Source: an uncultured SAR86 cluster bacterium
GTDB lineage: Bacteria > Pseudomonadota > Gammaproteobacteria > Magnimaribacterales > D2472
Direction of reading: 5' to 3'
NCBI GenBank assembly: GCA_902557645.1
Contig: CACEAP010000004.1
Coordinates: 80,649 to 144,648 of the forward strand
Length of the DNA: 64,000 bases
Translations under genes and position numbers: made by a program
In this document: positions 6,256 through 36,427 of the stretch, piece by piece
Position numbering within the stretch: position 1 is the first letter of the stretch
Layout: every line of letters starts with the position of its first letter
The notes under the pieces: generated by a model
The model's input: only the letters and a program-made list of their open reading frames with translations
Told to the model about the DNA's origin: nothing
The model's database searches: none

Positions 6256-6267
6256 AAATAAATTTTA

Positions 6268-6296
6268 AATAAAAAAGGCAACGTTTTCACGTTACC
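6268..6296 (-). terminator. Rho-independent terminator after the 845-aa TonB-dependent receptor
   Basis: The minus strand reads GGTAACG-tgaaaa-CGTTGCC followed by TTTTTTATT. It ends only about 12 nt before the phytase ATG. Confidence 0.6.
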
Positions 6297-6315
6297 TTTT
6301 TGAGTTTAACTAGAA

Positions 6316-8853: not shown

Positions 8854-8916
8854 AAGTTTAATAATTATTTAATTTGATCAACATACAAATAATTTGTTAC
8901 GTAGATAAAGATATAA

Positions 8917-8934
8917 TGTGACAATCATGTAACA
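8917..8934 (-). promoter_or_regulatory. Pho-box-like direct repeat upstream of the receptor at 6316-8853
   Basis: The minus strand reads TGTTACA-TGAT-TGTCACA (7+4+7), 64-81 nt upstream of the ATG. The E. coli Pho-box pattern is CTGTCAT-4 nt-CTGTCAY. Confidence 0.55.
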
Positions 8935-11599: not shown

Positions 11600-11617
11600 A
11601 TAGGTTTTATAAAGTTA

Positions 11618-14647: not shown

Positions 14648-14665
14648 TGTTACAACAGTGTTAAC
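14648..14665 (-). promoter_or_regulatory. weaker Pho-box-like repeat upstream of the lipoprotein/receptor operon
   Basis: The minus strand reads GTTAACA-CTGT-TGTAACA, 100-117 nt upstream of the ATG at 14548. The first half-site is degenerate. Confidence 0.35.
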
Positions 14666-17863: not shown

Positions 17864-18319
17864 TTATATGGAAAAAATAATAGTAAAACGCTTTATTTCG
17901 TTAAGTCTTGATACATTTATAGATTCAGGCGTTATGCCTATTAATTTAATTGAATCTTCTATAAACATTAAGGATTTTTCAAGATCATTTAATATATAAA
18001 CAATTTTGAGCTCTCCATTTTCTGAGGTTCGAACAAAATTAATAAGCCCATAATTTTCAGACATGCTATCTAATTTAGTGTATGTAGCTTCTGCATTTGC
18101 AAGAAATCCTTGCTGAGCTAAATTTAAAGATAAAATCTCAGCTTGCTTACTAACATATTCATAGTCAGCTTTTGATGATTTTAATCTTTGAGATGAATCT
18201 TGAAGATTACTGTAGAGAGATGAGGTTAAAGATACAATTATTCCTATAAATATAATACTGATTAATACTTGCAGTAAAGTTTTTTCTCTAGCTTGAAGGT
18301 TGTTATAAAATTCTTTCAT
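17864..18319 (-). CDS. gspM: type II secretion system protein M
   Basis: 151 aa with a single N-terminal TM. It is the last gene of the gsp operon, directly after gspL. The call rests on position and architecture. Confidence 0.6.
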   Translation of the reverse strand: MKEFYNNLQAREKTLLQVLISIIFIGIIVSLTSSLYSNLQDSSQRLKSSKADYEYVSKQAEILSLNLAQQGFLANAEATYTKLDSMSENYGLINFVRTSENGELKIVYILNDLEKSLMFIEDSIKLIGITPESINVSRLNEIKRFTIIFSI

Positions 18320-18321
18320 TA

Positions 18322-19488
18322 TTAATTTCCAAGGCCTACTAGAATTGATCCAGAAACCATCCCATCAATAGTCTCTATCTCTTCATTAATTAATACGATA
18401 TTTGCTTGCGGCATAAGATTAGTTAAAAATTTATATTTATTTGCAGCCAGTTTTTCAACAACTAAAAAAGCTTCCGAATTATTTACATCTAAATCAACCT
18501 TAGTAATTTCAGGGATGTCTAATCTTTTAATGCTATCTAATCCAGCAATAGACAATTGTGAGGCCTGCTCTAGATTGTATGAAGTAATAACTTCATCAAT
18601 TTGTCTGCGAGGATTAACAACTCTATTAATATTTGGATTAATTTCTTTAAATAGTTTTATGGTTTCATCCTTATACTCTTCTGTATATGCATTATTTAAA
18701 AAAGTGGCTGAAATTGGATAAATCACCAATAGGGTTATAACTGCAATAGCAATTGAAATATCAAATTTATTTATTTGATATCTTTTTATCCAGTATTCAA
18801 AATGAAAACCAGAAATATAAAGATTTGGAAAAAATAGGTAACTTTTTAGAAAATCAAGATGTAATAAATTTATGTTGGTATCTTTTGGCTTGCTGTCTTT
18901 AAAAAAAGCAATGATTTCTTTATCGGTTGAAAAAAGCTTAGGCAGGAAATCTTTCCTCGAATCTTTAATCAGCTCAAGATATTTCTTTATATTCTCCTTG
19001 TACTCCGAAAAGCCCTCACCCTTTCCAAATGAAAAAATAAAACGACCAAATAATTCCAATATAGACATTTCATTTTTTGCATAGGCTAAAAAATGCTCTG
19101 GATATATATAAATTTTTGCCCCAGTAAGTCTCAATTGATTACTAATTAAGTTTAGGTATGTTTTTTCAACAAGTAGTGCTAGATTAAGATTATTTTTTCT
19201 ATAAATAAAAATTTCATTTTCAGATATATCGCTAACAACATAACTGTCTATATCTGATATTAGTTTTGCTTTGGCAGACTCCTCGCTTTCTTTTTTAGAA
19301 TTTTCAATTTCTACAGAGGTTATTTTTGAAGATGGTACAAAGAAAAAAATCTCTGAATCAGGGCCAACTAATGTTGAAATATCATTAATAATTATTTGTG
19401 TTTGAGATTGGAAATTATTTTTAAGGTAATGGAAAACCTCTAACTTATTACTGTCATTAGCGGAATTATGTATGAAATATCTATTCAT
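18322..19488 (-). CDS. gspL: type II secretion system protein L
   Basis: 388 aa with a cytoplasmic domain, one TM (ISIAIAVITLLVIYPI) and a periplasmic tail. It sits between gspK and gspM. Confidence 0.65.
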   Translation of the reverse strand: MNRYFIHNSANDSNKLEVFHYLKNNFQSQTQIIINDISTLVGPDSEIFFFVPSSKITSVEIENSKKESEESAKAKLISDIDSYVVSDISENEIFIYRKNNLNLALLVEKTYLNLISNQLRLTGAKIYIYPEHFLAYAKNEMSILELFGRFIFSFGKGEGFSEYKENIKKYLELIKDSRKDFLPKLFSTDKEIIAFFKDSKPKDTNINLLHLDFLKSYLFFPNLYISGFHFEYWIKRYQINKFDISIAIAVITLLVIYPISATFLNNAYTEEYKDETIKLFKEINPNINRVVNPRRQIDEVITSYNLEQASQLSIAGLDSIKRLDIPEITKVDLDVNNSEAFLVVEKLAANKYKFLTNLMPQANIVLINEEIETIDGMVSGSILVGLGN

Positions 19489-19497
19489 ATATTCTCT

Positions 19498-20472
19498 TTA
19501 TAGGCCATTGTAAGATCTTGAAATAATATATCCAGTTCTATTATTCTCAAGATAGATAACACTTTCTGCACTTACCTTTAATTCATCTTTTATTATCTCA
19601 GATTTAAGTAAAAATAAATTTGAAGTGAAAAAAATACTTGCATTGCTATTAGTAAAATCAATACTTGGAAAATCTTGCATGAGCTGTCGTATATCTATAT
19701 AACCATCCTTTGGGGTATTGCTAATAATTAATTTTGCATCATTGATAGATATATTTGGTAATACAGCCGTTAAAACTTCATAATCTGCTTCATTCAATAA
19801 GTTTATATTTACCTTTGACATTCCAGCAAATGGAACTACGCATATATTCTCCTTTAGTTTCTTCCAATCAAAGTAAGAAATTGCTGGGAGATTTTTTAAT
19901 TCAGATAAATCATAAAAAAGTCTTTTGCTAGTGTATTGCTGAGGTTTATGTAACGGCCCTGTATAAAAATAATCTTCAAGGCCACTTCCTCTAGGCTGAT
20001 TATCAACATCAATCCAATCTATCATCTGATCTAGTAACGAATCTATATTTCTTTCATCAAATTCTTTAAGGATTAATAATTTTTTAAATGCCGCTATGCC
20101 TTTTGGGTTAGGAATATAGTTATTATTTGATAAAGATACGATTGAATTTATATTTAAACAATTTGAAGCATCAGATAATTGTGCGAAGAGCTGCCCTGAA
20201 GGATGTTCATAATAAAAAGCGTCTTTAAACAAAGGATCTTCTTTAGTTAGAATTTGGCTACCAAATCTATTTTTCTCTTCAATTCGTTTAATTGAAATAG
20301 ACTCAATGTTGTGAAATAACTCTAAACTATTAGATTCTAAATCTTGGTACACAGACCTTTTGAAAGCTAACAAAAAATTACTTCCAATAGACATTGCTAT
20401 TGCTGATAAAACTAACACTATGAGTAGAACAGAAATTAATATAACGCCTTTATCTTTATTTTTTATATACAT
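19498..20472 (-). CDS. gspK: type II secretion minor pseudopilin K
   Basis: 324 aa with an N-terminal hydrophobic segment (KGVILISVLLIVLVLSAIAMSIG) lacking the conserved Glu5, as in GspK. It follows gspJ. Confidence 0.75.
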   Translation of the reverse strand: MYIKNKDKGVILISVLLIVLVLSAIAMSIGSNFLLAFKRSVYQDLESNSLELFHNIESISIKRIEEKNRFGSQILTKEDPLFKDAFYYEHPSGQLFAQLSDASNCLNINSIVSLSNNNYIPNPKGIAAFKKLLILKEFDERNIDSLLDQMIDWIDVDNQPRGSGLEDYFYTGPLHKPQQYTSKRLFYDLSELKNLPAISYFDWKKLKENICVVPFAGMSKVNINLLNEADYEVLTAVLPNISINDAKLIISNTPKDGYIDIRQLMQDFPSIDFTNSNASIFFTSNLFLLKSEIIKDELKVSAESVIYLENNRTGYIISRSYNGL

Positions 20473-21076
20473 AATCTATATTTGGATTAATAACCCATTC
20501 ATATTCAAGATTATTCCTAGTAAAGGTAATCTTAATAAGTTCAGGTATCTTTCTTTGAGTAATTAAGTCAATAGGCCAACTTGCATACCATTTTGAAGTA
20601 CCAAGGTAACTAAATTCAATTTCTGAAATATCTTCTAAAAGAGTTGTTTCAAAAAATTCATCATAAGAATATGGGTTATCTGCGTAATACTGTTTTCGTA
20701 TTAGTGCATTATTTTGATATAAGTATTCGACTCTTCTGATTCTTGAGGTTGAATATGATGCATTTACAAGAGTCGTGAAAACTAATGAATCAGAAGCAGT
20801 GTCAGCAATAAAATTACCTTTTAGATTATTTCCAAAATAATCTCTCATAGGCACATTAATAATTTGCCTTATATCCCTTCTTAAGATACTGGAAGCTATA
20901 TTTAACTCTTTTATGTTTTGTAATTTTTTAGAACTTTCATCTCTTGCTTCAACTGAGGATTGAAGAAAATTTGTTGAAACAACAGCAATAATGCTCAGGA
21001 TTACTATTGATACTAGTACTTCGATAAGAGTAAAACCTTTTGAATTATTTTTTAACAAGGTAGCCCCGTGCTTCAT
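20456..21076 (-). CDS. gspJ: type II secretion minor pseudopilin J
   Basis: Prepilin motif SKGFTLIEVLVSIVIL. At 206 aa it sits in the GspJ position in the operon. Confidence 0.8.
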   Translation of the reverse strand: MKHGATLLKNNSKGFTLIEVLVSIVILSIIAVVSTNFLQSSVEARDESSKKLQNIKELNIASSILRRDIRQIINVPMRDYFGNNLKGNFIADTASDSLVFTTLVNASYSTSRIRRVEYLYQNNALIRKQYYADNPYSYDEFFETTLLEDISEIEFSYLGTSKWYASWPIDLITQRKIPELIKITFTRNNLEYEWVINPNIDYVYKK

Positions 21077-21428
21077 ATATATAATTCGATGATGAAGATT
21101 TTTTTACAAGAATTGAATACTCATAAACGTTAATAGCCGGTCCTTTAGAAATTTCCTCTTTCCACTCCCATTCAATTCCAGCCATTAAGACTTTGCCATC
21201 CCTCGATCCAGTCCCCTTGGGAATATCAATTGTATTCATTAAGGCTACTCTGTTGGTTCCAACTTCCCTTGCTAGGTATCTATCCTCTAATTCATATGTT
21301 GATATTGTGGTTGATGAAATGACTTGAAATATCGCTATAACTGAAGTGCTTAAGATTAATAAAGCTATTGCTACCTCTAAAAGACTAAATCCTTTATTTA
21401 GATTTAGTTTCATTTTCAATTTTTCCAT
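21045..21428 (-). CDS. gspI: type II secretion minor pseudopilin I
   Basis: Prepilin motif NKGFSLLEVAIALLIL. About 120 aa. The true start is probably the second Met (MKLNLNKG) at 21413. Confidence 0.8.
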   Translation of the reverse strand: MEKLKMKLNLNKGFSLLEVAIALLILSTSVIAIFQVISSTTISTYELEDRYLAREVGTNRVALMNTIDIPKGTGSRDGKVLMAGIEWEWKEEISKGPAINVYEYSILVKKSSSSNYIYEARGYLVKK

Positions 21429-21936
21429 TTTGATGCAGTTTTATAAGTTGAATATACTCTTCTGACTCAATGTGCAATTCAGCACCTGAATTTTCTCCTG
21501 AAGGATAAAAAATAATAGCAGGAAACTCTGTTATATCATTTTTAAGTTCTATATCATCTCCATCAATTCCTTTAATAATCATTTTATTTTTAGAAATACT
21601 TTTCCAATTGTTATTTAATGATCCTGAAATAAATTCCGTATCTTTATTACCATCTGAGTCTAAAATGAATATTTTTTGTGAAGTACTATCAGGGAACCAT
21701 CCTAAAATATTGCCAGAAAGAATACTTTCTTCTGATATTATTTGAAAATTTCTTTCAATAGATGCTCTACTTTGAGTTACATTCTCAATTGAAGATGTAT
21801 TAATTAAAATTACTGAGGAGGCAATTCCAATAATTAAAAGAACAACAAGAAGTTCTAGTAATGTGAAGCCTTTATTAAGTTTACTGTAACCAGTTTCCAA
21901 TATCTGAGTTTTCACCAGTACCACCTTCCATACCAT
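21394..21936 (-). CDS. gspH: type II secretion minor pseudopilin H
   Basis: Prepilin motif NKGFTLLELLVVLLIIG. The track start overlaps gspG by 56 nt. A TTG at 21900 would give a normal 10-aa leader and is more likely. Confidence 0.75.
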   Translation of the reverse strand: MVWKVVLVKTQILETGYSKLNKGFTLLELLVVLLIIGIASSVILINTSSIENVTQSRASIERNFQIISEESILSGNILGWFPDSTSQKIFILDSDGNKDTEFISGSLNNNWKSISKNKMIIKGIDGDDIELKNDITEFPAIIFYPSGENSGAELHIESEEYIQLIKLHQNGKIENETKSK

Positions 21937-22309
21937 CAGCTCCTAAAGTATATAAGTCATAATCTTTAGATTTCTGAGGCGGATGTTCGTATATATATTC
22001 ACGACCCCATGGATCAAGAGGAATAGAATTAATATAACCATCTTCAGGATACAGAAATGGTCTTTTTAATTCTGAATGAGGAACAATAAGTGCGTCTAAG
22101 CCTTGTGAAGTTGAAGGATAACTTAACTCATTAAATTTATATAGCTCTAGGGCTTTACCAGTTTGGGCAATGTCTGCTTTAATTTTTTCTAAGTTAGCTC
22201 TTTGCAAGAAAGGTGAAACATTTACTGCAACAATTGTTGTTAGAATACCTAATATGACTATAACTGCCATAAGCTCTATTAATGTAAAACCTTTTTGTTT
22301 GTGCTTCAT
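21881..22309 (-). CDS. gspG: type II secretion major pseudopilin G
   Basis: MKHKQKGFTLIELMAVIVILGIL plus the conserved LDPWGREYIY block. 142 aa. Confidence 0.92.
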   Translation of the reverse strand: MKHKQKGFTLIELMAVIVILGILTTIVAVNVSPFLQRANLEKIKADIAQTGKALELYKFNELSYPSTSQGLDALIVPHSELKRPFLYPEDGYINSIPLDPWGREYIYEHPPQKSKDYDLYTLGADGMEGGTGENSDIGNWLQ

Positions 22310-22314
22310 GTTTT

Positions 22315-23511
22315 TTATCCAAGTGTAAGTGCATTCATTTGCATTATAGGTATAAGTATAGCGAGAACTATCAGCAGAATAAAACCACCCATAAATATTG
22401 TTATTGCAGGTTCGAGAAGAGAGAGTAAAACATTTCTTTTGGATTCAATCTCAGACTTCATGAAATCTGAAACTTTTTTAAACATCTTTACTAAATTACC
22501 AGACCGATAACCACTAGATATTAATTGAATAAAAATATCAGGAAATATTTGTGTCTTACTCAAAGCATTAACAAAATCTTTTCCTTCAACAACCTCCCTT
22601 CTTGCATTAATTATTGAGTTTTTTAAAAATTTATTATCCAAAACTTTTGCAGCTTCATCCATTGCTAGATCAAGATTCATACCTGAATGTGTTAACAAAT
22701 ACATTGTGCTAGAGAATCTCTCTATTTCACTATTTAAAATAAACTTACCCACCAAAGGAAAGGAAAGTAATTTTTTATGAGCTTTAATATGATTATCTTT
22801 GTTTGAAGTGTATGACTTATAAAAAAAACCTAAAGAAGTAATTGCAAGAAAAATTGCTAATACAATATAAATAATATTATTAGAAAGAGTTAAAAGAGCT
22901 GAAGTCAAAAATGGCAGTTCTGCTCCAGCCTTGATAAATTGACCAACAACTTGAGGCATTACAAATACAAGTAAAGCTACAATAACCATAACACAAAAGC
23001 CTATTAAGATAATTGGATAAGCCAATGCTGAAAATATTTTTTGCTTTACAGTTGCACTTTCTTCTAAATAATCTGCAAGATTTTCAAAAATAATGTCTAA
23101 ATTTCCTGAACTATCTCCTGCAGTTACGAGCGAAACATACGTATTTGAGAAAACTTGAGGATATTTTTTCATGGCTTGACCTAATCTCTTACCCTGAATA
23201 ACTTCATCTCTTAAAGTGTAAAGAACATCAACTATAATCTCATTATTATATTGATCTGCAGTAATTTTTAAAGCTTCATCGATAGAAGTATCAGCATCTA
23301 ATAATGTTGCAATTTGTCGAGTAATTAAGACTAGATCTTTATCTTTAACTTTAGTTTTATTAGCTAAGCTTTTATTAGACTCCTTTATATATAAAGGTGT
23401 TAAATTTAAATCTTTAATAGCCTTTCTAGCATCCCTCTCTGAGGCAGCTGTTAAAAAGCCTTTTTCTTTTTTTCCAGAATTGTTAAAAGCAGTATAACTA
23501 TAAGCTGGCAT
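22315..23511 (-). CDS. gspF: type II secretion inner-membrane platform protein F
   Basis: 398 aa with two repeated GspF-type cytoplasmic domains and three TM segments. It lies between gspE and gspG. Confidence 0.92.
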   Translation of the reverse strand: MPAYSYTAFNNSGKKEKGFLTAASERDARKAIKDLNLTPLYIKESNKSLANKTKVKDKDLVLITRQIATLLDADTSIDEALKITADQYNNEIIVDVLYTLRDEVIQGKRLGQAMKKYPQVFSNTYVSLVTAGDSSGNLDIIFENLADYLEESATVKQKIFSALAYPIILIGFCVMVIVALLVFVMPQVVGQFIKAGAELPFLTSALLTLSNNIIYIVLAIFLAITSLGFFYKSYTSNKDNHIKAHKKLLSFPLVGKFILNSEIERFSSTMYLLTHSGMNLDLAMDEAAKVLDNKFLKNSIINARREVVEGKDFVNALSKTQIFPDIFIQLISSGYRSGNLVKMFKKVSDFMKSEIESKRNVLLSLLEPAITIFMGGFILLIVLAILIPIMQMNALTLG

Positions 23512-25000
23512 CTTCTTTAAGGTTATTTAACCTAATAATTTCTTCACATGATGTGATGCCACTTATTATAAGCTCTTTGCTTGCTTCATCTATAGAGGGT
23601 TGATCTTTAAACACGTGATCAACAATCTTGCTTTCTGATGCTTTTTGATGAATAAGATCTCTAGTTATTGCATCAACTTGAATACATTCTGCTATAGCAA
23701 TCCTTCCTTGGAAACCAGAAAAAGAGCATTCTTCACAGCCTCTAGCTGTAAATACCTTAGAGTTATTTTTTAGGTTAAATAATTTGATAGCCTCTGATGA
23801 TGGTGCAACTTCCTCTTTGCAATTATTACAAAGTCTTCTTACAAGCCTTTGGGAGATAATTGATCTTAAGCTTGATGATAATAAAAATGATTCTATACCC
23901 ATATCTCTTAATCTAGTAATTGCGCCAACAGCGCTATTAGTATGAACTGTTGAAAGAACTAAGTGACCCGTTAGGCTCGATTGAATTGCAATTTGAGCAG
24001 TTTCAACATCTCTAATCTCTCCTACCATCATTACATCTGGATCTTGTCGAAGCATAGCTCTTAAACCTTTAGCAAAGCTATAACCAGTTTTTGTATTTAC
24101 TTGAGTCTGCCCTATTCCTTTTAAAGTATATTCAATAGGGTCTTCTACGGTTAATATATTTTGCGAAGAATCACTTAACTCTCTTAATCCAGCATATAAA
24201 GTTGTAGTTTTACCAGATCCTGTAGGACCTGTAAAAAGAATTATACCTTCAGAGCTTTTTAATGATTTTTTATAATTGTTTAAGATCTGCATAGGAAGAC
24301 CTAAGTCATCAATATTTATTTGTGCAGACTGCTTATCAAGTAATCTTAAAACAATTCTTTCACCATATGATGATGGAAGTGTGGATACTCTTACATCAAC
24401 ATTTTTATCTCCCAATGAAAGTGAAACTCTGCCATCTTGAGGCAGTCTTCTTTCAGATATATCTAATCTGGATATAATTTTTATTCTAGCTATTACTAAA
24501 GAGGCTATCCTGCTATCTTGTGATAAAACCTCTTTTAATATTCCATCAATTCTAAACCTAATAACTAATTGATCTTCATAGGGTTCAAAATGCACATCTG
24601 AGGCCCTTTGTTTTATAGCTTGGCTGATAATTCCGTTAATAAGTTTAATTATCGGCGCATCATTATTGCCATTGAGGAGGTCTTCAGTAGGAGCAATATT
24701 TCCTGCAAAAGATTCAAGATCAAAATCATCAGACAATTCTTCAGAGATTTTTTCTGAAGAATCTTTTGAATCAAATGACTTGGTTAACATCTCATTAAAT
24801 TCTTCAGCTGAACATTTATTAATATCAAGTGGTTTATCTAAAAAACGACATAATTCTTGATAGGTATTTATATCAATATGATTTGGTGAATAAACTTTAC
24901 ATATGTCATCATCCTCTAAAGCTATTATCATTCTTTCACGAACATAATCGTATGGAAGATTGCTAGTTGTATCTAGATTTTTTGATGTTAAATCATCCAT
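23498..25000 (-). CDS. gspE: type II secretion ATPase E
   Basis: Walker A GPTGSGKTTT, Asp/His boxes, and the tetracysteine CNNC…CEEC typical of GspE. Confidence 0.95.
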   Translation of the reverse strand: MDDLTSKNLDTTSNLPYDYVRERMIIALEDDDICKVYSPNHIDINTYQELCRFLDKPLDINKCSAEEFNEMLTKSFDSKDSSEKISEELSDDFDLESFAGNIAPTEDLLNGNNDAPIIKLINGIISQAIKQRASDVHFEPYEDQLVIRFRIDGILKEVLSQDSRIASLVIARIKIISRLDISERRLPQDGRVSLSLGDKNVDVRVSTLPSSYGERIVLRLLDKQSAQINIDDLGLPMQILNNYKKSLKSSEGIILFTGPTGSGKTTTLYAGLRELSDSSQNILTVEDPIEYTLKGIGQTQVNTKTGYSFAKGLRAMLRQDPDVMMVGEIRDVETAQIAIQSSLTGHLVLSTVHTNSAVGAITRLRDMGIESFLLSSSLRSIISQRLVRRLCNNCKEEVAPSSEAIKLFNLKNNSKVFTARGCEECSFSGFQGRIAIAECIQVDAITRDLIHQKASESKIVDHVFKDQPSIDEASKELIISGITSCEEIIRLNNLKEDASL

Positions 25001-25001
25001 T

Positions 25002-26855
25002 TTATTTAGACTTTGTTAAATCAATTAATTCAATTTCTGAGCCTCGAGATAATTGTTCAGCTTTTATAAAATTGTACTTTTCAGCCGAGAGTTCATTAAT
25101 TGAATCTGAATCAACTAGAATCGTTGGTCTAATAAAAACAAATAATTTTTTCTTGATAACTTGATTTGAAGATGATTGAAATAATTTTCCTAGAACTGGT
25201 ATAGAGCCCAAAAGAGGAACCTTGGAAACATTTTCTTGTATATCCTCATCTATCAAGCCACCTAAAACTATTATTTGTTTGTTATCCGCTAAAACTGTGG
25301 TTTCAATAATTCTATTATTTGTAATTAAATCGACGCCGCTTGAGTAAGTCCCAGCAACACTTGAAACTTCTTGAATAATATTAAGAATTACAGAGCTACC
25401 TTCGTTTATTTGTGGAGTAACTTCTAATTTAATACCAACCTCTTCTCTTGAAGTTGTTCTAAATGCATTAATATTACTAGAACCTAAGCTCTCGCCAGTA
25501 GTAACAGGTATCTCTTGCCCAACTAAAAGTTTAGAGGGTGTGTTATCCATAGCTATTACTGATGGAGTAGATAAGATATTTGAATTCTGATCATTAGCAA
25601 CAGCATTGATAATACCTACAAAGTTGTCTGCCCCTGTAAGATCACCAAAACCTGCTATTAAACCCTGAGCTCCAAGCAATGAAGAAGTCGCAACTTGACC
25701 TAATGTAGCATCAGTACCATCAGAGGCAGCAGAGCCAGCTAGAGCTAAGAGATCAGGTCCTGTACCAACATCAAAAGCAGTTACACCTATAGGTATATCT
25801 CCATCTTTAGCTCCAGTATAAATTGTTTCTACACCAAGGTTTTTTGCAGCTGTTTCTGATAATTCAACGATAATTGCCTCAACTAAAACTTGCGCTCTTC
25901 TAATATCTAGTTTTGAAATTAAATTCCTAATTCCAGGAAGATTAGATTCCTCTGAAGAAATAACTAATGAATTAGTTTTTTCATGATGAGTAATAACGGT
26001 CTTAATTCCATCAGGACTCGCAGCAAACCTATCAGAAACACTATTTAAAATAGCAGCAACTTCCTCGGCTTTAGCATATTTTAAATAGATAACATCAATA
26101 GACTTATCTGCTTTTACATCGGCATCTAGAGAAAATAAAGTTTTTTCAACATTTGATGTAATTGTTGAATTGGCAGACAGAATAACTGAGTTAGATGGAC
26201 TAAATGGTATGGCAACAAAATTATTAATAGTTGGATTATTTTGTGCTTTGAGTTTTTCTAAAATCCTTACAGCTTCTATAGAAGACAGGTTCTCAAGTTT
26301 TATGATTGAAATTTTTGCACTATTATCTTTATCAAGATCTTTTAATAAACTTTTTATTCTATTTACATTACTTAGTCTATCAACTAAGAGCACTGAATTA
26401 ATAGAAGGAATACTTGAAAGATGAGATTGTCTTCCGGTAATTGGTTTAATCATTGGTATAACTTCAGCAGCAGAGCGATTTATTAATGGAATAACGGCAG
26501 TTAGAAAATTACCATTTTGATTATCAATATCATTCTTATCTCTGGTAGCTTCATTTTCTGGCACGATTCTAACAACACCGTTATCAGAAACTGAACTAAA
26601 ACCATTCACTTGTATGGTTCTAAGATAAACATCCCAAACCTGTTCACTATCAAGGCTTGCATTTGAATAGATAGTTATTTTACCTTTGACTCTAGGATCT
26701 AAGATGATGGTTTTTTTAGCAAATCTTGCAATATCTTGAGAAACTTTTTTTATATCAGCATCTTCATAATTGAGAACAAAAGAATCCTGCGAAGCTGCAA
26801 TCAAAGGAAGTCCAATTAACAATGAATAAAAAAATAATCTAAAAGATTTCCACAT
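25002..26855 (-). CDS. gspD: type II secretion secretin D
   Basis: Signal peptide, N0-N3-like repeats, and a secretin core (…VPLLGSIPVLGKLFQS…). Confidence 0.92.
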   Translation of the reverse strand: MWKSFRLFFYSLLIGLPLIAASQDSFVLNYEDADIKKVSQDIARFAKKTIILDPRVKGKITIYSNASLDSEQVWDVYLRTIQVNGFSSVSDNGVVRIVPENEATRDKNDIDNQNGNFLTAVIPLINRSAAEVIPMIKPITGRQSHLSSIPSINSVLLVDRLSNVNRIKSLLKDLDKDNSAKISIIKLENLSSIEAVRILEKLKAQNNPTINNFVAIPFSPSNSVILSANSTITSNVEKTLFSLDADVKADKSIDVIYLKYAKAEEVAAILNSVSDRFAASPDGIKTVITHHEKTNSLVISSEESNLPGIRNLISKLDIRRAQVLVEAIIVELSETAAKNLGVETIYTGAKDGDIPIGVTAFDVGTGPDLLALAGSAASDGTDATLGQVATSSLLGAQGLIAGFGDLTGADNFVGIINAVANDQNSNILSTPSVIAMDNTPSKLLVGQEIPVTTGESLGSSNINAFRTTSREEVGIKLEVTPQINEGSSVILNIIQEVSSVAGTYSSGVDLITNNRIIETTVLADNKQIIVLGGLIDEDIQENVSKVPLLGSIPVLGKLFQSSSNQVIKKKLFVFIRPTILVDSDSINELSAEKYNFIKAEQLSRGSEIELIDLTKSK

Positions 26856-26857
26856 AA

Positions 26858-27250
26858 CTATTTTCCAACCTTATTTTCTAATTTGTATAGTTTACCTGAT
26901 GCACTAAGAACAATTTCATCTGGACTTACACTCACAAGTTCGTATGTATTTTCTAAAATATCACCCTCATATAAAACAAATTCTTTACTGCCTTTTTTAA
27001 GGATTACAGATGAGTTAGCCTCACCAAACCTATAACCTACAATTATATAATCAAATTCAGCTTTATTTATATTAGTAACTTCCGCATTTTGAGCCTCAAT
27101 ATTAGAATTCTTGATCTTATCAAGATTTGTAAATCTAATATCTTTGATTTCAGGCTTATTAATAAAACTAATTAAAAGCAAAGAAAGTAGCAATAGTAAC
27201 AACAATGCGACTAATGTATTGATAATTCTTTTAATTTTTCTAGTGTTCAT
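26858..27250 (-). CDS. gspC: type II secretion protein C, minimal form (TM + HR domain, no PDZ)
   Basis: First gene of the operon. It has an N-terminal TM (LLLLLLSLLLISF) and a C-terminal HR/PilP-like segment (VILKKGSKEFVLYEGDILENTYELVSVSPDEIVL). Only 130 aa. Confidence 0.6.
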   Translation of the reverse strand: MNTRKIKRIINTLVALLLLLLLSLLLISFINKPEIKDIRFTNLDKIKNSNIEAQNAEVTNINKAEFDYIIVGYRFGEANSSVILKKGSKEFVLYEGDILENTYELVSVSPDEIVLSASGKLYKLENKVGK

Positions 27251-27285
27251 AATAAAAAAGAGCTACATAGTGTAGCTCATTTTTT
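27251..27285 (-). terminator. terminator-like hairpin immediately upstream of the gspC ATG
   Basis: The minus strand reads GAGCTACA-cta-TGTAGCTC followed by TTTTTTATT, then ATG. A and T runs flank both sides, so it could act bidirectionally. Confidence 0.55.
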
Positions 27286-27294
27286 ATAAATCTT

Positions 27295-27312
27295 AGTGAA
27301 ATCTATGTGAAA
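27295..27312 (-). promoter_or_regulatory. Pho-box-like direct repeat at the gsp operon promoter
   Basis: The minus strand reads TTTCACA-TAGA-TTTCACT, then 6 nt, then TATAAA (27283-27288). The architecture matches the perfect box at 27793-27810. Confidence 0.45.
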
Positions 27313-27413
27313 TCTAAAAACTAAATTTAATAGTTTAATCCTGATAATTTTACTACTTTAGTAAGCCTACCAGACTTCATAATATGATTTAGTTTACCAA
27401 AATGATACTTTAA

Positions 27414-27698
27414 TCATGCCATTCTCTTCAATTCTGAGAACTCACATGTCTTGAAACCATTTGGTTTGGTGACTTTAAAGGTGTTTCTTATAGTATTCTT
27501 AGATTCAAAATACTTCTTACCTTTTAGACAGTCAGGCGTTAAGATTTGACCCCTATAGTATGAGTCATCTTTAAGTTCGAATATGATACTCGAATCTTTC
27601 ATGAAGTATATTTTCTTTATATCGGATTTATTTAACTTTTCATCTGCCTGTGCAAATCCAACTAAAAACAAGGCAGATATTATTGCGTATTTTAACAT
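27414..27698 (-). CDS. 94-aa secreted protein, unknown function
   Basis: Signal peptide MLKYAIISALFLVGFAQA, two Cys residues, and a strong SD (CAGGAGATTGAT-ATG). A Pho box lies upstream. Confidence 0.6.
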   Translation of the reverse strand: MLKYAIISALFLVGFAQADEKLNKSDIKKIYFMKDSSIIFELKDDSYYRGQILTPDCLKGKKYFESKNTIRNTFKVTKPNGFKTCEFSELKRMA

Positions 27699-27792
27699 AT
27701 CAATCTCCTGTTATGTTTGAAACTATCTGACAACTGGACTTCGACTTCTCTACTTGCTCTTTGTGTCGTAATTGTTTCAATTATGTGTCAAA

Positions 27793-27810
27793 TGTGACAA
27801 ATATGTGACA
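27793..27810 (-). promoter_or_regulatory. Pho box (two perfect TGTCACA repeats, 4-nt AT spacer)
   Basis: The minus strand reads TGTCACA-TATT-TGTCACA, then TTTGACA, then CATAAT. A third degenerate repeat ACACATA follows in phase. The site is 95-112 nt upstream of the 94-aa ORF. Confidence 0.65.
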
Positions 27811-27859
27811 TATAGTAAATAATCTCAATAAGAATGTAAAGAAATATGTGTAAATATAC

Positions 27860-29620
27860 TTATTTGGATTTAGGGATCGTAAACCAGAATATTGATCCTT
27901 TAGGTTTATTTGAGGTAATGCCCACCTCTCCGTTTAAACTATTAATCAAATTCTTGACTATAGCTAATCCAAGGCCGCTACCTTTATTATCAGAGGCTCT
28001 TGCCGAAGCAGTTCTAAAAAATCTATCAAATATATACTCTTTATCTTCACTTGGTACACCTTCACCAGAATCACTTACCATAACCTTTATCATTTTACCT
28101 TGATCACGAGTGGAAATTTCAACACTGGAACCGGCTTCAGAATACTTATATGCATTATCACAAAGATTATTCATAACTCTTTCTAAAGCTTGAGAGTCTG
28201 CATACATGAGACCTGTATGCTTAGGATTAAAGTTAAGTGCAATTGATCTCTTTTTAGCAACACTTTTCATAGATACTAAAAAAGAATCCATGAATTCATT
28301 AAAATTAAGGTCTTTTATATTTAATTTAAGGTCCCCATATTCAATTCTAGAAAGATCAATAAGATCACTAACCATTGAGGATAGTCTTTCTGAATTATGT
28401 AATATAGCTTTAGCAAAAACCTTTGCATCTTTTTTGTTGTCAAGCGCGCCATCTAATAATGTTTCTGAATTTGCCATAATAACGCTTACAGGTGTCCTTA
28501 ATTCATGTGAGACGTTTGAAATAAAATCTCTACGCATTGAATTTAGTTGTCTTAATTGCGTAATATCGTGAACAACTAAAATATACTCTCCTGTTGTTTT
28601 TGATTGGTTCATAGAACCTAAAACCCATCTAGTAGATTTATCTTCTAACTCAATTTCAAATTCAATATCTGCTCTTTTTTTATTAGTAACCCTATTATAT
28701 AAATAGTTGATTGCTGGTATCTCTAGATTATTTATATTCTTTTCTTTTAAGGATTTAATATCTAATATAACTAGTGACTGTTCATTATTGTAAACAAATT
28801 CACCATCTTTATTAGTAACTAATATACCCTCGCCAAGATCATCTAATACCAATCCAAACTGATCACGCTGTTTTGCAATCATCTTTATCTGGTTTTTTAA
28901 GTTCTCAGAAATATGATAAATAGACCTAGCAACATCTCCAAATTCATCAACTCTTTGGGTGGGTAAGGCTTTAAGATTTCTTTTCTTAAAATCACTATCT
29001 GCTATTGTTGTAGCTGCATCTGCTAAACTTTCTATATTTGAATATAAATAATTTGTAGCAACGGCACTAGCAAATATAGATACTATAATTACAACAAGAA
29101 ATAATAAAAATAATGAAAGTTGCAGAGTACCTGTCGCAGTTTCTAAGTAGGTAAGTGGAACTGCTATTCTTATAATATTTGGATTATCTTTACTCTGATC
29201 TGTTATAGCAAAATATAATAAGTCTTCATTTAAGGTATCGCTATAACGCGATACCCAGCCTGAGCCATCTTTAAGTGCATTGATTACTTCAGCTCTATCG
29301 CCATGATTGTCAACTGATTTTATTTGATTAATATTAAGATCGGAATCTCCAATAACTTGGCCATTATTAAGAATAAATGTGACGCGTGAATTAGCGGCAG
29401 CTCCCAAATTATCTGCAGCTGCATCAGCTTCTGCTATATTTTTATAGTTATTTAAATTTTGCGCAGATGCTAAAAGAAGACCAGCCTGTTTTTCTAATTC
29501 ATTAACTATTTGTAATTCAAAAGCTCTAGTAAGATCACGCTCTGCGACAATATATGAAGTGACAATGCCTGATGATAATATAAGAAAAACTAAGAAAAAG
29601 ATTCGCGATCTGATGCCCAT
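27860..29620 (-). CDS. phoR: PhoR-like sensor histidine kinase with a large periplasmic domain
   Basis: Two TMs flank about 140 periplasmic residues. These are followed by HAMP, PAS, H-box SHELRTPVSVI and N/G boxes. It lies directly downstream of the phoB-like gene. Confidence 0.75.
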   Translation of the reverse strand: MGIRSRIFFLVFLILSSGIVTSYIVAERDLTRAFELQIVNELEKQAGLLLASAQNLNNYKNIAEADAAADNLGAAANSRVTFILNNGQVIGDSDLNINQIKSVDNHGDRAEVINALKDGSGWVSRYSDTLNEDLLYFAITDQSKDNPNIIRIAVPLTYLETATGTLQLSLFLLFLVVIIVSIFASAVATNYLYSNIESLADAATTIADSDFKKRNLKALPTQRVDEFGDVARSIYHISENLKNQIKMIAKQRDQFGLVLDDLGEGILVTNKDGEFVYNNEQSLVILDIKSLKEKNINNLEIPAINYLYNRVTNKKRADIEFEIELEDKSTRWVLGSMNQSKTTGEYILVVHDITQLRQLNSMRRDFISNVSHELRTPVSVIMANSETLLDGALDNKKDAKVFAKAILHNSERLSSMVSDLIDLSRIEYGDLKLNIKDLNFNEFMDSFLVSMKSVAKKRSIALNFNPKHTGLMYADSQALERVMNNLCDNAYKYSEAGSSVEISTRDQGKMIKVMVSDSGEGVPSEDKEYIFDRFFRTASARASDNKGSGLGLAIVKNLINSLNGEVGITSNKPKGSIFWFTIPKSK

Positions 29621-29624
29621 TTAG

Positions 29625-30329
29625 TTAATCAGGAATTCGAGAAAATTTATAACCAACACCTCTTATGGTTTGAACATATTTACCCATTGAACCAAGTTTT
29701 TCTCTTAACCTCTTAATGTGAGTATCCACGGTTCGAGTTGTAATATTGGAACTGTAACCCCACACATCTTCTAAAAGCTGATCTCTAGTTTGCACTCTAC
29801 CTCGCCTTTCAACCAATTGTCTTAATAGTTTAAATTCTAATGCTGTAAGAATAATTTCTTCATCATTTATGAAGATTTCATGAGATTCAATATTCATTTT
29901 TAGTGAACCAAAATTTCTATTAATTTCATGCGTCTGATTACTTAGATTTGATGTTTTAGTATTTCGTTTAAGGATTGCCTTAACTCTTAATATTAATTCT
30001 CTTACACTAAACGGTTTGGTCACATAATCATCAGCACCTAATTCAAATCCAACAACTTTATCAACCTCATCATCTTTTGCAGTAAGAATAAGAATGGGAA
30101 TTTCTTGGATCGTTGAGTTAGATTTAATTTGCCTACATAAATCTAAACCTGATCCATCAGGCAGCATAATATCAAGAAGAATAATTGAATAACTAGGATT
30201 CTCTAGAAAGGTATTTGCTTCCTCAATTGAGCCGCAGCTCTCAACTTTATAACCTTCTCTTGATAAATTATATTCAAGAGTTTTTCGTATATCTGGTTCG
30301 TCTTCGATAACAAGGACTTTATTTGACAT
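29625..30329 (-). CDS. phoB: PhoB-like OmpR-family response regulator
   Basis: Receiver domain (VLVIEDEPDIR…LLDIMLPDGSG…ADDYVTKPF) plus winged helix (TRTVDTHIKRLREKL…VRGVGYKF). Colinear with E. coli PhoB. Confidence 0.78.
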   Translation of the reverse strand: MSNKVLVIEDEPDIRKTLEYNLSREGYKVESCGSIEEANTFLENPSYSIILLDIMLPDGSGLDLCRQIKSNSTIQEIPILILTAKDDEVDKVVGFELGADDYVTKPFSVRELILRVKAILKRNTKTSNLSNQTHEINRNFGSLKMNIESHEIFINDEEIILTALEFKLLRQLVERRGRVQTRDQLLEDVWGYSSNITTRTVDTHIKRLREKLGSMGKYVQTIRGVGYKFSRIPD

Positions 30330-35680: not shown

Positions 35681-36427
35681 ATGCTCTATTTAGTTCTTGT
35701 AGGAATTTTTGGTGCCTGTATGGGAAGCTTTACTTCTATGCTTTTGCACAGACTTCCCAAAATGAAAGATGACGAATCAGTAAATTTATTCTACCCAAGT
35801 TCCTCATGTCCAGATTGTAAAAATAAATTAAGTGTTTCAGCATTAATACCTATTTTTAGCTATCTATGGCAAAAAGGTGTTTGTAAATTTTGTAAAAAAT
35901 CTATTAGCTCTTTCTATTTAATCAATGAAATAATTCATTGTTGTGTTGTTTTATTAATAGCGTTATATGTTGGAATAAATGTTGAAGGCTTGTTGTACTA
36001 CTTTATATTTTTTATTTTATATATTCTTTTTTTTCTAGATTATAAGTACTTATATTTACCTTTTTATCTTAATCTTACTCTCATCCCTTTAGGCATCTTA
36101 ATTAATTATTTATTCAATACTTTTACAACTTTATATTTATCTATTGGTGGAATGATAATTGGATATAGTCTTTTGTGGATGGTGAATGCAATCTATAAAG
36201 CTGTTAGGTCTAAAAATGGCATTGGTGGTGGAGATTTTATTCTTCTTGCCGGTCTTGGAAGTGTATTTGGAATAATGGCTCTTGGGCCAATTATTTTTCT
36301 CGGTTCAAGCATCTCAATCATAATTTATTTACTCACTAACAAATCTCCAAACGAGGAGATACCATTTGGGTCTGGTTTAATAATAGGGTCAATAATATTT
36401 AATCTTTTAAAAATATTTATAAATTAA
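35681..36427 (+). CDS. prepilin peptidase (A24 family, GspO/PilD)
   Basis: CPDC…CKFC zinc cluster, the GGGDFILLAGLG catalytic Asp motif, and multiple TMs. It lies about 8 kb from the gsp operon. Confidence 0.88.
   Translation: MLYLVLVGIFGACMGSFTSMLLHRLPKMKDDESVNLFYPSSSCPDCKNKLSVSALIPIFSYLWQKGVCKFCKKSISSFYLINEIIHCCVVLLIALYVGINVEGLLYYFIFFILYILFFLDYKYLYLPFYLNLTLIPLGILINYLFNTFTTLYLSIGGMIIGYSLLWMVNAIYKAVRSKNGIGGGDFILLAGLGSVFGIMALGPIIFLGSSISIIIYLLTNKSPNEEIPFGSGLIIGSIIFNLLKIFIN

What the first reader, a model, noticed from the sequence alone, without database searches (positions are those of the whole stretch)
17864..27312. Complete compact T2SS embedded in a phosphate-acquisition neighbourhood with a Pho-box-like promoter
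The gspC-M genes (no gspN; the prepilin peptidase is unlinked) sit between pit/ppk2/ppx and the phytase locus on one side and phoB/phoR on the other. TTTCACA-TAGA-TTTCACT lies 6 nt upstream of a TATAAA, just before gspC. This mirrors the architecture of the perfect box at 27793-27810, where the spacing to CATAAT is 7 nt. In Pseudomonas aeruginosa the Hxc T2SS is induced by phosphate limitation and exports the alkaline phosphatase LapA. A similar dedicated, Pho-controlled secretion route for the phytase and/or the large lipoprotein is plausible here.
Basis: partly seen in the sequence, partly recalled or inferred. Interest (0 to 1): 0.65.

Follow-up and report, generated by a model that had tools for sequence, protein, structure and literature searches.

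The report
Phosphate-linked type II secretion system of SAR86

Summary
Window 17864-27250 (- strand) encodes a complete T2SS, gspCDEFGHIJKLM. It is the only secretin, the only GspE-type ATPase and the only prepilin peptidase (35681-36427) in this 1.25-Mb SAR86 genome.

The two repeats are not equivalent:
- **TGTCACA-tatt-TGTCACA (27793-27810)** is a strong Pho box. It is one of only two strong matches in the genome. An equivalent box sits directly behind phoR in 11 related loci.
- **TTTCACA-taga-TTTCACT (27295-27312)** lacks the G that is invariant in 27 of 27 related half-sites. It scores below threshold and is absent from all other species. It looks like an 11-bp tandem duplication.

The strong box drives orf94 and a broken copy of a conserved 28-codon microgene. 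Its transcript must then cross a conserved terminator hairpin that ends 9 nt before the gspC ATG. A conserved TAnnnT hexamer, a likely basal -10, lies inside that hairpin.

The T2SS lies downstream of phoBR in 34 of 35 related loci and in family f4. In families f2 and f3 it lies beside pstSCAB/PiT or phytase genes. This matches the published Caulobacter ElpS-TBDR-T2SS arrangement, where the T2SS belongs to the PhoB regulon.

Verdict: a new member of a known kind.

The parts
17864..18319 (-). gspM (151 aa)
   Evidence: Pfam T2SSM, 28 bits against a cut-off of 27.8.
18322..19488 (-). gspL (388 aa)
   Evidence: No significant sequence-family hit; GspL_C at E 0.016. The AlphaFold model's top PDB matches are the EpsL/GspL cytoplasmic domain, E 1e-9.
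19498..20472 (-). gspK (324 aa)
   Evidence: Pfam T2SSK_1st, E 4e-17.
20456..21076 (-). gspJ (206 aa)
   Evidence: Pfam T2SSJ, E 6e-17, plus N_methyl.
21045..21428 (-). gspI (127 aa)
   Evidence: Pfam T2SSI, E 3e-9, plus N_methyl.
21394..21936 (-). gspH (180 aa)
   Evidence: TIGR01708 gspH, E 7e-18 but below its cut-off, plus N_methyl.
21881..22309 (-). gspG, major pseudopilin (142 aa)
   Evidence: Pfam T2SSG, E 1e-29.
22315..23511 (-). gspF (398 aa)
   Evidence: Pfam T2SSF, E 2e-54, two copies.
23498..25000 (-). gspE ATPase (500 aa)
   Evidence: Pfam T2SSE, E 7e-142, plus GSPE_N1E. It is the only T2SSE-family gene in the genome.
25002..26855 (-). gspD secretin (617 aa)
   Evidence: Secretin, Secretin_N and GspD N0 domains. 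It is the only secretin in the genome. It is present in 81 of 121 SAR86-order genomes.
26858..27250 (-). Minimal gspC (130 aa; TM plus HR-like segment, no PDZ)
   Evidence: Weak T2SSC and TIGR01713 hits. The ORF at the same position in SAR86 families f2 and f3 is 273-283 aa and passes Pfam T2SSC.
27251..27278 (-). Conserved terminator-like hairpin GAGCTACA-CTA-TGTAGCTC (27278..27260) plus T6 tract, ending 9 nt before the gspC ATG
   Evidence: -14.9 kcal/mol, z -6.9. It is conserved across lineages whatever the upstream gene, with compensatory changes in L020.
27269..27274 (-). TACACT, a candidate basal -10 hexamer inside the hairpin, 18 nt before the ATG
   Evidence: A TAnnnT hexamer ends 15-21 nt before the gspC ATG in 28 of 30 distinct related sequences. 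It is kept even where the second hairpin arm is lost.
27295..27312 (-).
   Evidence: It is present only in this species (L011) and absent in all other relatives. Its PWM score is below 12.
27327..27417 (-). Broken copy of a conserved 28-codon microgene. The N-terminal fragment (27417..27394) stops after 7 codons; the C-terminal part (27380..27327) reads MKSGRLTKVVKLSGLNY.
   Evidence: The intact 87-nt ORF with an SD is present in 10 relatives and shows a coding substitution pattern.
27414..27698 (-). orf94, a small secreted protein (signal peptide, 2 Cys) with an AGGAG SD. It is a species-specific insertion between the Pho box and the microgene.
   Evidence: It has no homologue in the other loci or elsewhere in the genome, and no Pfam or NCBIfam hit.
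27780..27810 (-). Strong Pho box TGTCACA-tatt-TGTCACA (27810..27793), then 7 nt, then CATAAT (27785..27780)
   Evidence: PWM score 27.3, the best in the 1.25-Mb genome. An equivalent box lies directly behind phoR in 11 related loci.
27860..29620 (-). phoR-like sensor kinase (586 aa)
   Evidence: HisKA and HATPase_c domains. Best NCBIfam hits are PnpS and PhoR, below their cut-offs.
29625..30329 (-). phoB-like response regulator (234 aa)
   Evidence: Best NCBIfam hits are PhoB models at 241 and 237 bits, below their cut-offs. The best PDB match is RegX3.
35681..36427 (+). gspO, prepilin peptidase (248 aa), the only one in the genome
   Evidence: Pfam A24_N_bact plus Peptidase_A24.
11618..14548 (-). 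Duplicated ElpS-like lipoprotein (976 aa, lipobox LASC), a candidate T2SS-dependent exoprotein. A degenerate box GTTAACA-ctgt-TGTAACA lies upstream at 14648-14665.
   Evidence: In 10 other SAR86 loci this gene and its TBDR lie directly upstream of gspC.
8972..11599 (-). TonB-dependent receptor paired with the ElpS-like gene
5179..8934 (-). Second strong Pho box (8917-8934), then TBDR (6316-8853), then a hairpin, then the beta-propeller phytase (5179-6255)
   Evidence: PWM score 23.3. Pfam Phytase E 8e-52, and TBDR domains. The upstream sequence is shown.

Best explanation
**What it is.** This is the single T2SS of a SAR86 bacterium: gspC-M, plus gspO 8.4 kb away. It belongs to an order-wide conserved phosphate-acquisition neighbourhood.

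**Proposed mechanism (inferred, not shown).**
- The PhoB-like regulator binds the strong box at 27793-27810 and fires a promoter with -10 CATAAT.
- The transcript covers orf94 and the remnant of a 28-codon microgene. It then meets an intrinsic-terminator hairpin that ends 9 nt before the gspC ATG.
- The fraction that reads through raises gsp expression under phosphate limitation.
- A weak constitutive promoter supplies basal expression. Its -10 (TACACT) lies inside the hairpin, so its own transcripts carry only the 3' arm and do not terminate.

**Proposed role.** The machine then exports or releases Pho-induced exoproteins. The prime candidates are the ElpS-like surface lipoprotein and the phytase. 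This is the same logic as the ElpS/T2SS system of Caulobacter.

**The proximal TTTCAC repeat.** It is a species-specific 11-bp tandem duplication. At most it is a weak auxiliary PhoB site that arose after the orf94 insertion pushed the ancestral box about 500 bp away from gspC.
For: **Shown here.**
- The T2SS is complete and unique in the genome.
- Only two strong Pho-box matches exist in 1.25 Mb. One is here; the other is upstream of the TBDR-phytase pair.
- The same kind of box precedes small secreted proteins next to PhoD-like genes in other SAR86 genomes.
- The box directly behind phoR and pointing at gspC is conserved in 11 related loci with GspD identity from 67% to 88%.
- Between orf94 and gspC there is no hairpin other than the one at 27260-27278, and there are only 9 nt between its T-tract and the ATG. 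Any gsp transcription must therefore cross it or start inside it.
- The hairpin is strong where a separate gene precedes gspC (a TBDR or the microgene; -13 to -17 kcal/mol). It is absent where phoR abuts gspC. The TAnnnT hexamer persists in 28 of 30 distinct sequences.
- Synteny: phoBR-[box]-elpS-TBDR-hairpin-gspC in 10 loci, with phoBR upstream confirmed in 3 of 3 extended loci. phoBR-gspC in 12 loci. phoBR-box-microgene-gspC in 12 loci, counting the same-species locus L011.
- More distant SAR86 families place the T2SS downstream of phoBR, or beside pstSCAB-PhoU_div-PiT or TBDR-phytase-PiT.

**Published.**
- Caulobacter elpS-cc0171-gspC-N, with ElpS release dependent on the T2SS (PMC2996285).
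- The Caulobacter T2SS is counted in the PhoB regulon (PMC11208175).
- The Xanthomonas xcs cluster carries an ElpS homologue (PMC7777525).
Against:
- The hairpin looks like an efficient terminator (8-bp stem, T6, -14.9 kcal/mol). It could fully insulate gsp from the Pho promoter.
- In the 12 loci where phoR abuts gspC, no Pho box was found within 2.5 kb upstream. No box is evident upstream of phoB either. Pho control is therefore not demonstrably universal in SAR86.
- In Caulobacter, gspE and gspL rose only 1.7-fold in poor medium.
- The PhoB and PhoR assignments score below NCBIfam's curated cut-offs.
- T2SS substrates cannot be predicted from sequence.
- In Caulobacter the T2SS is needed for release of ElpS, not for its surface exposure.
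Confidence: 0.6

Rival explanations
1. The proximal TTTCACA-taga-TTTCACT repeat is a genuine PhoB site which, with TATAAA 6 nt downstream, forms a dedicated PhoB-dependent gsp promoter.
For: - It is an exact 11-bp-period direct repeat of a TKTCAC core. It is one of only two in the genome, both within 500 bp of each other on the same strand.
- A third in-phase unit follows it.
- It arose exactly where the orf94 insertion separated the ancestral box from gspC.
- From memory: some E. coli Pho half-sites carry T instead of G, for example in the phoB promoter.
Against: - It is absent from all relatives except the same species.
- Both half-sites lack the G that is invariant in 27 of 27 related units. 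The PWM score is below 12 and there are 3 mismatches to the consensus.
- TATAAA lacks the -7 T and is not conserved.
- A transcript starting there would begin with the complete terminator hairpin.
- Relative to the conserved TACACT hexamer, the repeat sits 20 nt upstream, one helical turn too far for a Pho-box promoter.
Confidence: 0.2
2. The T2SS is a constitutive housekeeping machine. The Pho box drives only orf94 and the microgene, the hairpin terminates that transcript completely, and gsp is transcribed solely from its own promoter. The synteny with phoBR is inherited gene order without regulatory meaning.
For: - The hairpin with its T-tract is strong and conserved.
- A conserved -10-like hexamer lies 18 nt before the ATG in nearly all lineages.
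- No Pho box was detected in the lineages where phoR abuts gspC.
- The Caulobacter T2SS is expressed in rich medium too.
Against: - The neighbourhood has been rearranged several times across the order, yet it always keeps phosphate genes next to gsp: phoBR, elpS-TBDR, pstSCAB/PiT, or phytase. Inertia alone would not predict that.
- Intrinsic terminators are rarely 100% efficient (general knowledge).
- The Caulobacter T2SS is listed in the PhoB regulon.
Confidence: 0.2

Closest known systems
Caulobacter crescentus ElpS (CC0170) - CC0171 (TBDR) - gspC-N T2SS locus (Le Blastier et al. 2010, PMC2996285; PhoB regulon in Commun Biol 2024, PMC11208175)
   Same: - A phosphate-starvation lipoprotein and its TonB-dependent receptor lie co-directionally upstream of the only T2SS. 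That is exactly the order found in 10 SAR86 loci.
- The lipoprotein has a lipobox.
- A phytase and TBDRs belong to the same regulon.
- The T2SS is counted as PhoB-regulated.
   Different: - In this window the elpS-TBDR pair lies about 3.3 kb beyond the far end of the gsp operon, not upstream of gspC.
- The ElpS-like protein is a tandem duplication (976 aa against about 50 kDa).
- There is no gspN, and GspC is reduced to 130 aa.
- phoBR itself is adjacent.
- This genome has no PstS.
- Homology to ElpS itself was not tested directly here. I showed only family membership with Hyphomonas and Rheinheimera lipoproteins.
Xanthomonas Xcs T2SS cluster with its ElpS homologue (review PMC7777525)
   Same: It is a T2SS cluster that carries an ElpS-family gene and is proposed to serve nutrient-stress adaptation.
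   Different: Xcs is a second T2SS alongside Xps, whereas here it is the only one. No regulation data exist for either. The phylogenetic relationship of the Gsp proteins was not tested.
Pseudomonas aeruginosa Hxc T2SS / LapA
   Same: It is a T2SS induced by phosphate limitation that exports a phosphate-scavenging enzyme.
   Different: Hxc is an accessory system dedicated to the alkaline phosphatase LapA, which is encoded in its cluster. No LapA-type gene lies next to the gsp genes here. The candidate cargo here is a phytase and an ElpS-like lipoprotein.
E. coli-type Pho-box promoters (pstS, phoA; from memory: two 7-bp CTGTCAT repeats at 11-bp period, about 10 bp upstream of the -10, replacing the -35)
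   Same: The box at 27793-27810 has two TGTCACA repeats at an 11-bp period, an AT-rich 4-nt spacer, a -10-like CATAAT 7 nt downstream and no -35.
   Different: The half-site consensus in SAR86 is TGT(C/A/T)ACA. The proximal TTTCAC repeat does not fit it.

Membership tests
Type II secretion system (Gsp) | Outer-membrane secretin GspD with N0 and N domains plus the secretin domain | tested here: met
   Pfam Secretin E 2e-42, Secretin_N E 7e-28, GspD N0 E 3e-22.
Type II secretion system (Gsp) | GspE ATPase and GspF platform protein | tested here: met
   T2SSE E 7e-142 plus N1E. T2SSF E 2e-54.
Type II secretion system (Gsp) | Major pseudopilin GspG and minor pseudopilins H, I, J, K | tested here: met
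   T2SSG, T2SSI, T2SSJ and T2SSK_1st match, with N_methyl motifs. gspH matches TIGR01708 at E 7e-18, below its cut-off.
Type II secretion system (Gsp) | Assembly-platform proteins GspC, GspL and GspM | tested here: met
   - **GspM:** T2SSM at 28 bits, just over the 27.8 cut-off.
- **GspL:** by fold; the EpsL/GspL cytoplasmic domain is the top hit at E 1e-9, from a model with mean pLDDT 63 and an N-terminal domain at 75-93.
- **GspC:** only weak hits at E about 1e-3 to 1e-4. The ORF at the same position in other SAR86 families passes T2SSC.
Type II secretion system (Gsp) | Prepilin peptidase GspO | tested here: met
   There is a single A24 peptidase in the genome, at window 35681-36427.
PhoB-activated (Pho regulon) promoter | A Pho box (two 7-bp direct repeats, 11-bp period) placed just upstream of a -10, in place of a -35 | tested here: met
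   This is met for 27793-27810: PWM score 27.3, the top of the genome, and conserved in 11 related loci. The downstream genes are orf94 and the microgene remnant; gspC follows only after a hairpin.
PhoB-activated (Pho regulon) promoter | The same feature, tested for the proximal repeat at 27295-27312 | tested here: not met
   The repeat has 3 mismatches to the SAR86 consensus and lacks the invariant G in both halves. Its PWM score is below 12 and it is not conserved.
PhoB-activated (Pho regulon) promoter | PhoB binding and induction under phosphate limitation | not testable with these tools
ElpS-type T2SS module (Caulobacter / Xcs kind) | An ElpS-family lipoprotein gene with its TBDR immediately upstream of gspC, co-directional | tested here: inconclusive
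   This is met in 10 SAR86 loci (L007-9, 16, 17, 20, 27, 29, 33, 34). It is not met in this window, where the pair lies downstream of gspM beyond pit, ppk2 and ppx.
ElpS-type T2SS module (Caulobacter / Xcs kind) | Sequence homology of the lipoprotein to ElpS (CC0170) | tested here: inconclusive
   The half-protein finds a large family (PF28492) that includes Hyphomonas and Rheinheimera lipoproteins at 36-41% identity. The Caulobacter sequence itself was not available. PF28492 is not in the local library. An earlier agent asserted ElpS homology.
ElpS-type T2SS module (Caulobacter / Xcs kind) | T2SS-dependent release of the lipoprotein | not testable with these tools
   This needs genetics or a secretome analysis.
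Hxc-type T2SS (P. aeruginosa) | A dedicated LapA-type alkaline phosphatase encoded with the cluster | tested here: not met
   No phosphatase gene lies within or beside gspC-M. The neighbours are Ppx, PPK2, PiT, orf94 and phoBR.

The most novel reading that the evidence does not exclude
The element in front of gspC may have two functions at once. As RNA it would terminate the strongly Pho-induced upstream transcript (TBDR, microgene or orf94). As DNA it would carry the -10 of the gsp promoter in its 5' arm and loop. SAR86 would then set T2SS levels as basal expression plus Pho-dependent read-through from a 28-nt element. Separately, a conserved 28-residue, Pho-box-driven microprotein encoded between phoR and gspC may be a previously unrecognised Pho-regulon member. 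It could act as a feedback modulator of the unusual PstS-independent PhoR, or as a T2SS accessory factor. This species has lost it and may have compensated with the TTTCAC duplication.
Probability: 0.25. Interest if true: 0.55.

Novelty: new member of a known kind. Interest (0 to 1): 0.42.

Why it matters
SAR86 is among the most abundant heterotrophs of the surface ocean. Its genomes are about 1.2 Mb, and many members lack the Pst high-affinity phosphate transporter.

This work shows that the order's only T2SS is physically tied to phoBR, Pho boxes, ElpS-type lipoproteins, TBDRs and phytase across the whole order. That suggests the machine is kept mainly for phosphorus scavenging. It also gives a concrete, small predicted Pho regulon that can be tested in metatranscriptomes or in the newly cultured strains.

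The finding extends the Caulobacter ElpS/T2SS paradigm to a major marine lineage. It does not reveal a new kind of system.

Tried and rejected
- **GspL by sequence.** There was no Pfam or NCBIfam hit and no PDB sequence hit. Homologues were all SAR86 proteins without Pfam annotation. The question was settled by fold search.
- **Direct ElpS test.** PF28492 is not in the local library. The Hyphomonas homologues were not on record for context look-up.
- **Microprotein homologues.** The query was too short for the tool.
- **Rfam on 27000-28000.** Nothing came near a gathering score.
- **Leader-peptide attenuator model (microgene plus hairpin).** Rejected. The spacer between the ORF stop and the hairpin varies in length and sequence, with no conserved anti-terminator. 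The same hairpin also follows TBDR genes that have no microgene.
- **orf94 as a relative of the Pho-box-driven small secreted proteins of other SAR86 genomes.** No similarity was found.
- **T4P or competence system instead of a T2SS.** Rejected because GspC, K, L and M are present and there is only a single ATPase.
- **Autoregulated phoBR-gsp operon.** No Pho box was found upstream of phoB or the AMP-ligase gene.

Full report
**Identity of the window.** The window is AT-rich (about 32% G+C). It lies on contig C4 of a 1.25-Mb, 87.5%-complete genome. Loci related through GspD come almost entirely from SAR86 cluster genomes. The nearest is MED-G78, with GspD at 99-100% identity.

**The observation.**
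- Eleven tightly packed ORFs on the - strand (27250..17864) are gspC, D, E, F, G, H, I, J, K, L and M.
- Pfam recognises M, K, J, I, G, F, E (with N1E) and D (N0, N, secretin). NCBIfam recognises H.
- GspL gave no sequence-family hit. A model built on 12 SAR86 orthologues had mean pLDDT 63, with the N-terminal domain at 75-93. Its best PDB matches were the cytoplasmic domain of EpsL/GspL (1yf5, 4pht, 1w97; E 1e-9 to 7e-8) and PulL. Its C-terminal domain matched PulL/PulM/XcpY periplasmic domains.
- GspC is only 130 aa with weak T2SSC hits.
- The genome holds one secretin, one GspE-family ATPase and one prepilin peptidase. That peptidase is window 35681-36427 (+), 8.4 kb from gspC, so it is not really unlinked.
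- The neighbours are as described: PiT, PPK2 and a short Ppx on one side, a PhoB-like and a PhoR-like protein on the other, and further away two TBDRs, a beta-propeller phytase and a 976-aa duplicated lipoprotein.
- No PstS is detectable in the genome. This agrees with Dupont et al. 2012, who found only two substrate-binding ABC importers in SAR86 (PMC3358033).

**The two repeats.**
- T[GT]TCAC-N5-T[GT]TCAC occurs twice in the window against 0.03 expected. It occurs only twice in the entire genome, and both copies are here.
- I built a position weight matrix from 27 half-site units taken from relatives, not from the window. With it, the distal box TGTCACAtattTGTCACA (27793-27810) scores 27.3, the best in the genome.
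- The only other strong hit is TGTTACAtgatTGTCACA (8917-8934; score 23.3), upstream of the TBDR-phytase pair. Shuffled genomes give about 0.4 hits at a score of 20 or more.
- A degenerate box GTTAACActgtTGTAACA precedes the ElpS-like gene.
- In other SAR86 genomes the exact consensus is equally rare (0-5 hits per genome). There it precedes small secreted proteins next to PhoD-like genes.
- This motif is therefore credibly the PhoB site of SAR86, and the predicted regulon is tiny.
- The proximal repeat TTTCACAtagaTTTCACT carries T where all 27 related units have G. It scores below 12 and has 3 mismatches to the consensus.

**Comparative test of the promoter claim.** I fetched 37 SAR86 loci around GspD.
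- In 11 of them (L002-6, 12, 14, 31, 36-38; GspD identity 67-88%), phoB-phoR is followed by a spacer of about 220-320 bp.
- That spacer starts with two or three in-phase TGT(C/A/T)ACA units. An SD and a 28-codon ORF follow, then 60-110 poorly conserved bases, then the palindrome GAGCTACACTATGTAGCTC plus a T-run, and immediately the gspC ATG.
- None of these loci has the TTTCAC repeat. At that position they read ...TTATTAAGATTTTTATAAAATGAGC.... Only L011, the same species, shares it.
- In the window's species, a 94-codon gene for a small secreted protein has been inserted between the box and the microgene. This gene has no detectable homologue, and the microgene is broken.
- The AGATTTCACat / AGATTTCACta / AGATTTATAaa arrangement looks like an 11-bp slippage duplication of the ancestral AAGATTT(T)TATAAA.

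**The element in front of gspC.**
- AAATGAGCTACACTAnGTAGCTCATTTTT..ATTATG is conserved in front of gspC whatever gene lies upstream.
- Where a separate gene precedes gspC (a TBDR, the microgene or orf94), the element folds at -13 to -17 kcal/mol (z -6 to -8) with flanking A- and T-tracts. L020 carries a compensatory C:G to A:T change.
- Where phoR abuts gspC with a 27-55-nt spacer, the second arm is gone, yet the AGCTA(C/A)A(C/A)T core remains.
- That core contains a TAnnnT hexamer (TACACT, TACAAT, TAAAAT, TAGAAT or TAAACT) ending 15-21 nt before the ATG in 28 of 30 distinct sequences.
- My reading, which is inference, is that the hexamer is the basal -10 of the gsp operon. On this reading the hairpin is an intrinsic terminator for the more strongly expressed upstream gene.
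- Transcripts that start about 7 nt after TACACT would contain only the 3' arm and so would not self-terminate.
- Perfect-stem hairpins with a T-run are rare in this genome (47 in total). Only 4 are followed by a co-directional ORF start within 25 nt, and the gspC case is the closest at 9 nt.
- The phytase gene shows the same layout behind its TBDR.
- Rfam finds nothing here.

**Synteny across the order.**
- Among 35 informative loci, 12 have phoBR-box-microgene-gspC (counting L011) and 12 have phoBR abutting gspC.
- Ten have the ElpS-like gene and its TBDR directly upstream of gspC. One has the prepilin peptidase there.
- I extended three of the ElpS-type loci. All three showed phoB-phoR, then a degenerate in-phase box (TGTCACAaaacTGTAAGA, TGTTACAtatcTGTTACT or GTTAACAttctCGTCACA), then the lipoprotein gene.
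- GspD is present in 81 of 121 sampled genomes of the order. That is 43 of 55 high-quality genomes and 17 of 20 genera, nearly always as a single copy.
- In a more distant family (f4) the order is again AMP-ligase-phoB-phoR-gspC.
- In families f2 and f3 the T2SS follows pstS-pstC-pstA-pstB-PhoU_div-PiT or TBDR-phytase-PiT, with a divergent prepilin peptidase and a full-length GspC.
- The neighbourhood has thus been reshuffled repeatedly but always keeps phosphate genes beside gsp.

**Comparison with what is known.**
- Le Blastier et al. 2010 (PMC2996285) described exactly the arrangement elpS (cc0170)-TBDR (cc0171)-gspC-N in Caulobacter, and also in Xanthomonas, Sphingomonas and Hyphomonas.
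- They showed that ElpS is a phosphate-starvation lipoprotein whose release, though not its surface exposure, needs the T2SS.
- A 2024 study lists the Caulobacter T2SS, TBDRs and a phytase in the PhoB regulon (PMC11208175).
- A review notes the ElpS homologue in the Xanthomonas xcs cluster and the parallel with Hxc (PMC7777525).
- I found no paper linking the SAR86 T2SS to Pho.
- An earlier agent of this scan called the 976-aa protein a double ElpS-type lipoprotein. I confirmed the lipobox, the internal duplication (46% identity between halves) and membership of a large family that includes Hyphomonas lipoproteins. I could not compare it with CC0170 itself.
- The PhoB-like protein's best hits are PhoB models, below cut-off, and RegX3, the mycobacterial phosphate regulator.

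**Verdict.**
- The T2SS and its phosphate neighbourhood are real and conserved across the order.
- Pho control of the T2SS is plausible. It is best explained by read-through from the conserved distal Pho-box promoter on top of a basal promoter, but it remains unproven.
- The proximal 'Pho-box-like promoter' is a species-specific duplication with weak credentials.
- This is a new member of a known kind (the ElpS/T2SS Pho module) in an ecologically important lineage.
- Two details are worth following: the conserved microgene and the terminator-embedded -10.

Noticed in passing
window 27327-27417 (-); intact copies at L002:5395-5481, L003:5430-5516, L006:5373-5459, L012:5445-5531 and others: A conserved 28-codon ORF (MAKLFWNKFHFIMKSGRLNKIVKISGII type) with an SD sits directly behind the Pho box between phoR and gspC in 10 SAR86 relatives. 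It is always 87 nt. Its substitutions are biased to the third codon position (346/186/522). In frame, 295 of 717 differing codon pairs are synonymous, against 88 and 63 in the shifted frames. In this window it is broken by a stop after 7 codons, and only the C-terminal half is still readable.
   Followed up: partly
window 8972-14548 compared with L016, L017 and L034: The ElpS-like lipoprotein and its TBDR are 93-95% identical to those of SAR86 genomes whose GspD, E and F are only 56-68% identical. This suggests recent transfer of the module between SAR86 genera. It may explain why the module is not upstream of gspC here.
   Followed up: no
window 26858-27250; L049:7228-8049; L051:7205-8056: GspC is reduced to 126-142 aa in SAR86 families f1 and f4. 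It is 273-284 aa in families f2 and f3, and the two copies scanned pass Pfam T2SSC, one with a faint PDZ hit. The loss of the C-terminal domain is therefore lineage-wide and not an annotation artefact.
   Followed up: partly
window 6256-6315 (-): A terminator hairpin (GGTAACGTgaaaACGTTGCC plus T6) sits between the Pho-box-driven TBDR and the phytase start codon. This is the same layout as in front of gspC, with a leaky terminator ahead of the downstream gene.
   Followed up: no
L040:1066-1479 (-), L041:1545-1970 (+), L042:1066-1530 (-): In other SAR86 genomes, perfect Pho boxes with an AGGAG SD drive a conserved 137-154-aa secreted protein (motif CPKGSVGC). In two of the three loci it sits next to a PhoD-like gene. 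It is unrelated to orf94 of this window.
   Followed up: no
whole genome G000: No PstS (PF12849) is detectable in this 87.5%-complete genome, whereas SAR86 families f2 and f3 carry pstSCAB next to their T2SS. The PhoR here must sense phosphate without Pst.
   Followed up: partly
G013, G061, G097, G117 (family f4): The GspD matches in several f4 genomes are reported with one in-frame TAA. This was not examined and may simply be the alignment running into the gspC stop codon.
   Followed up: no
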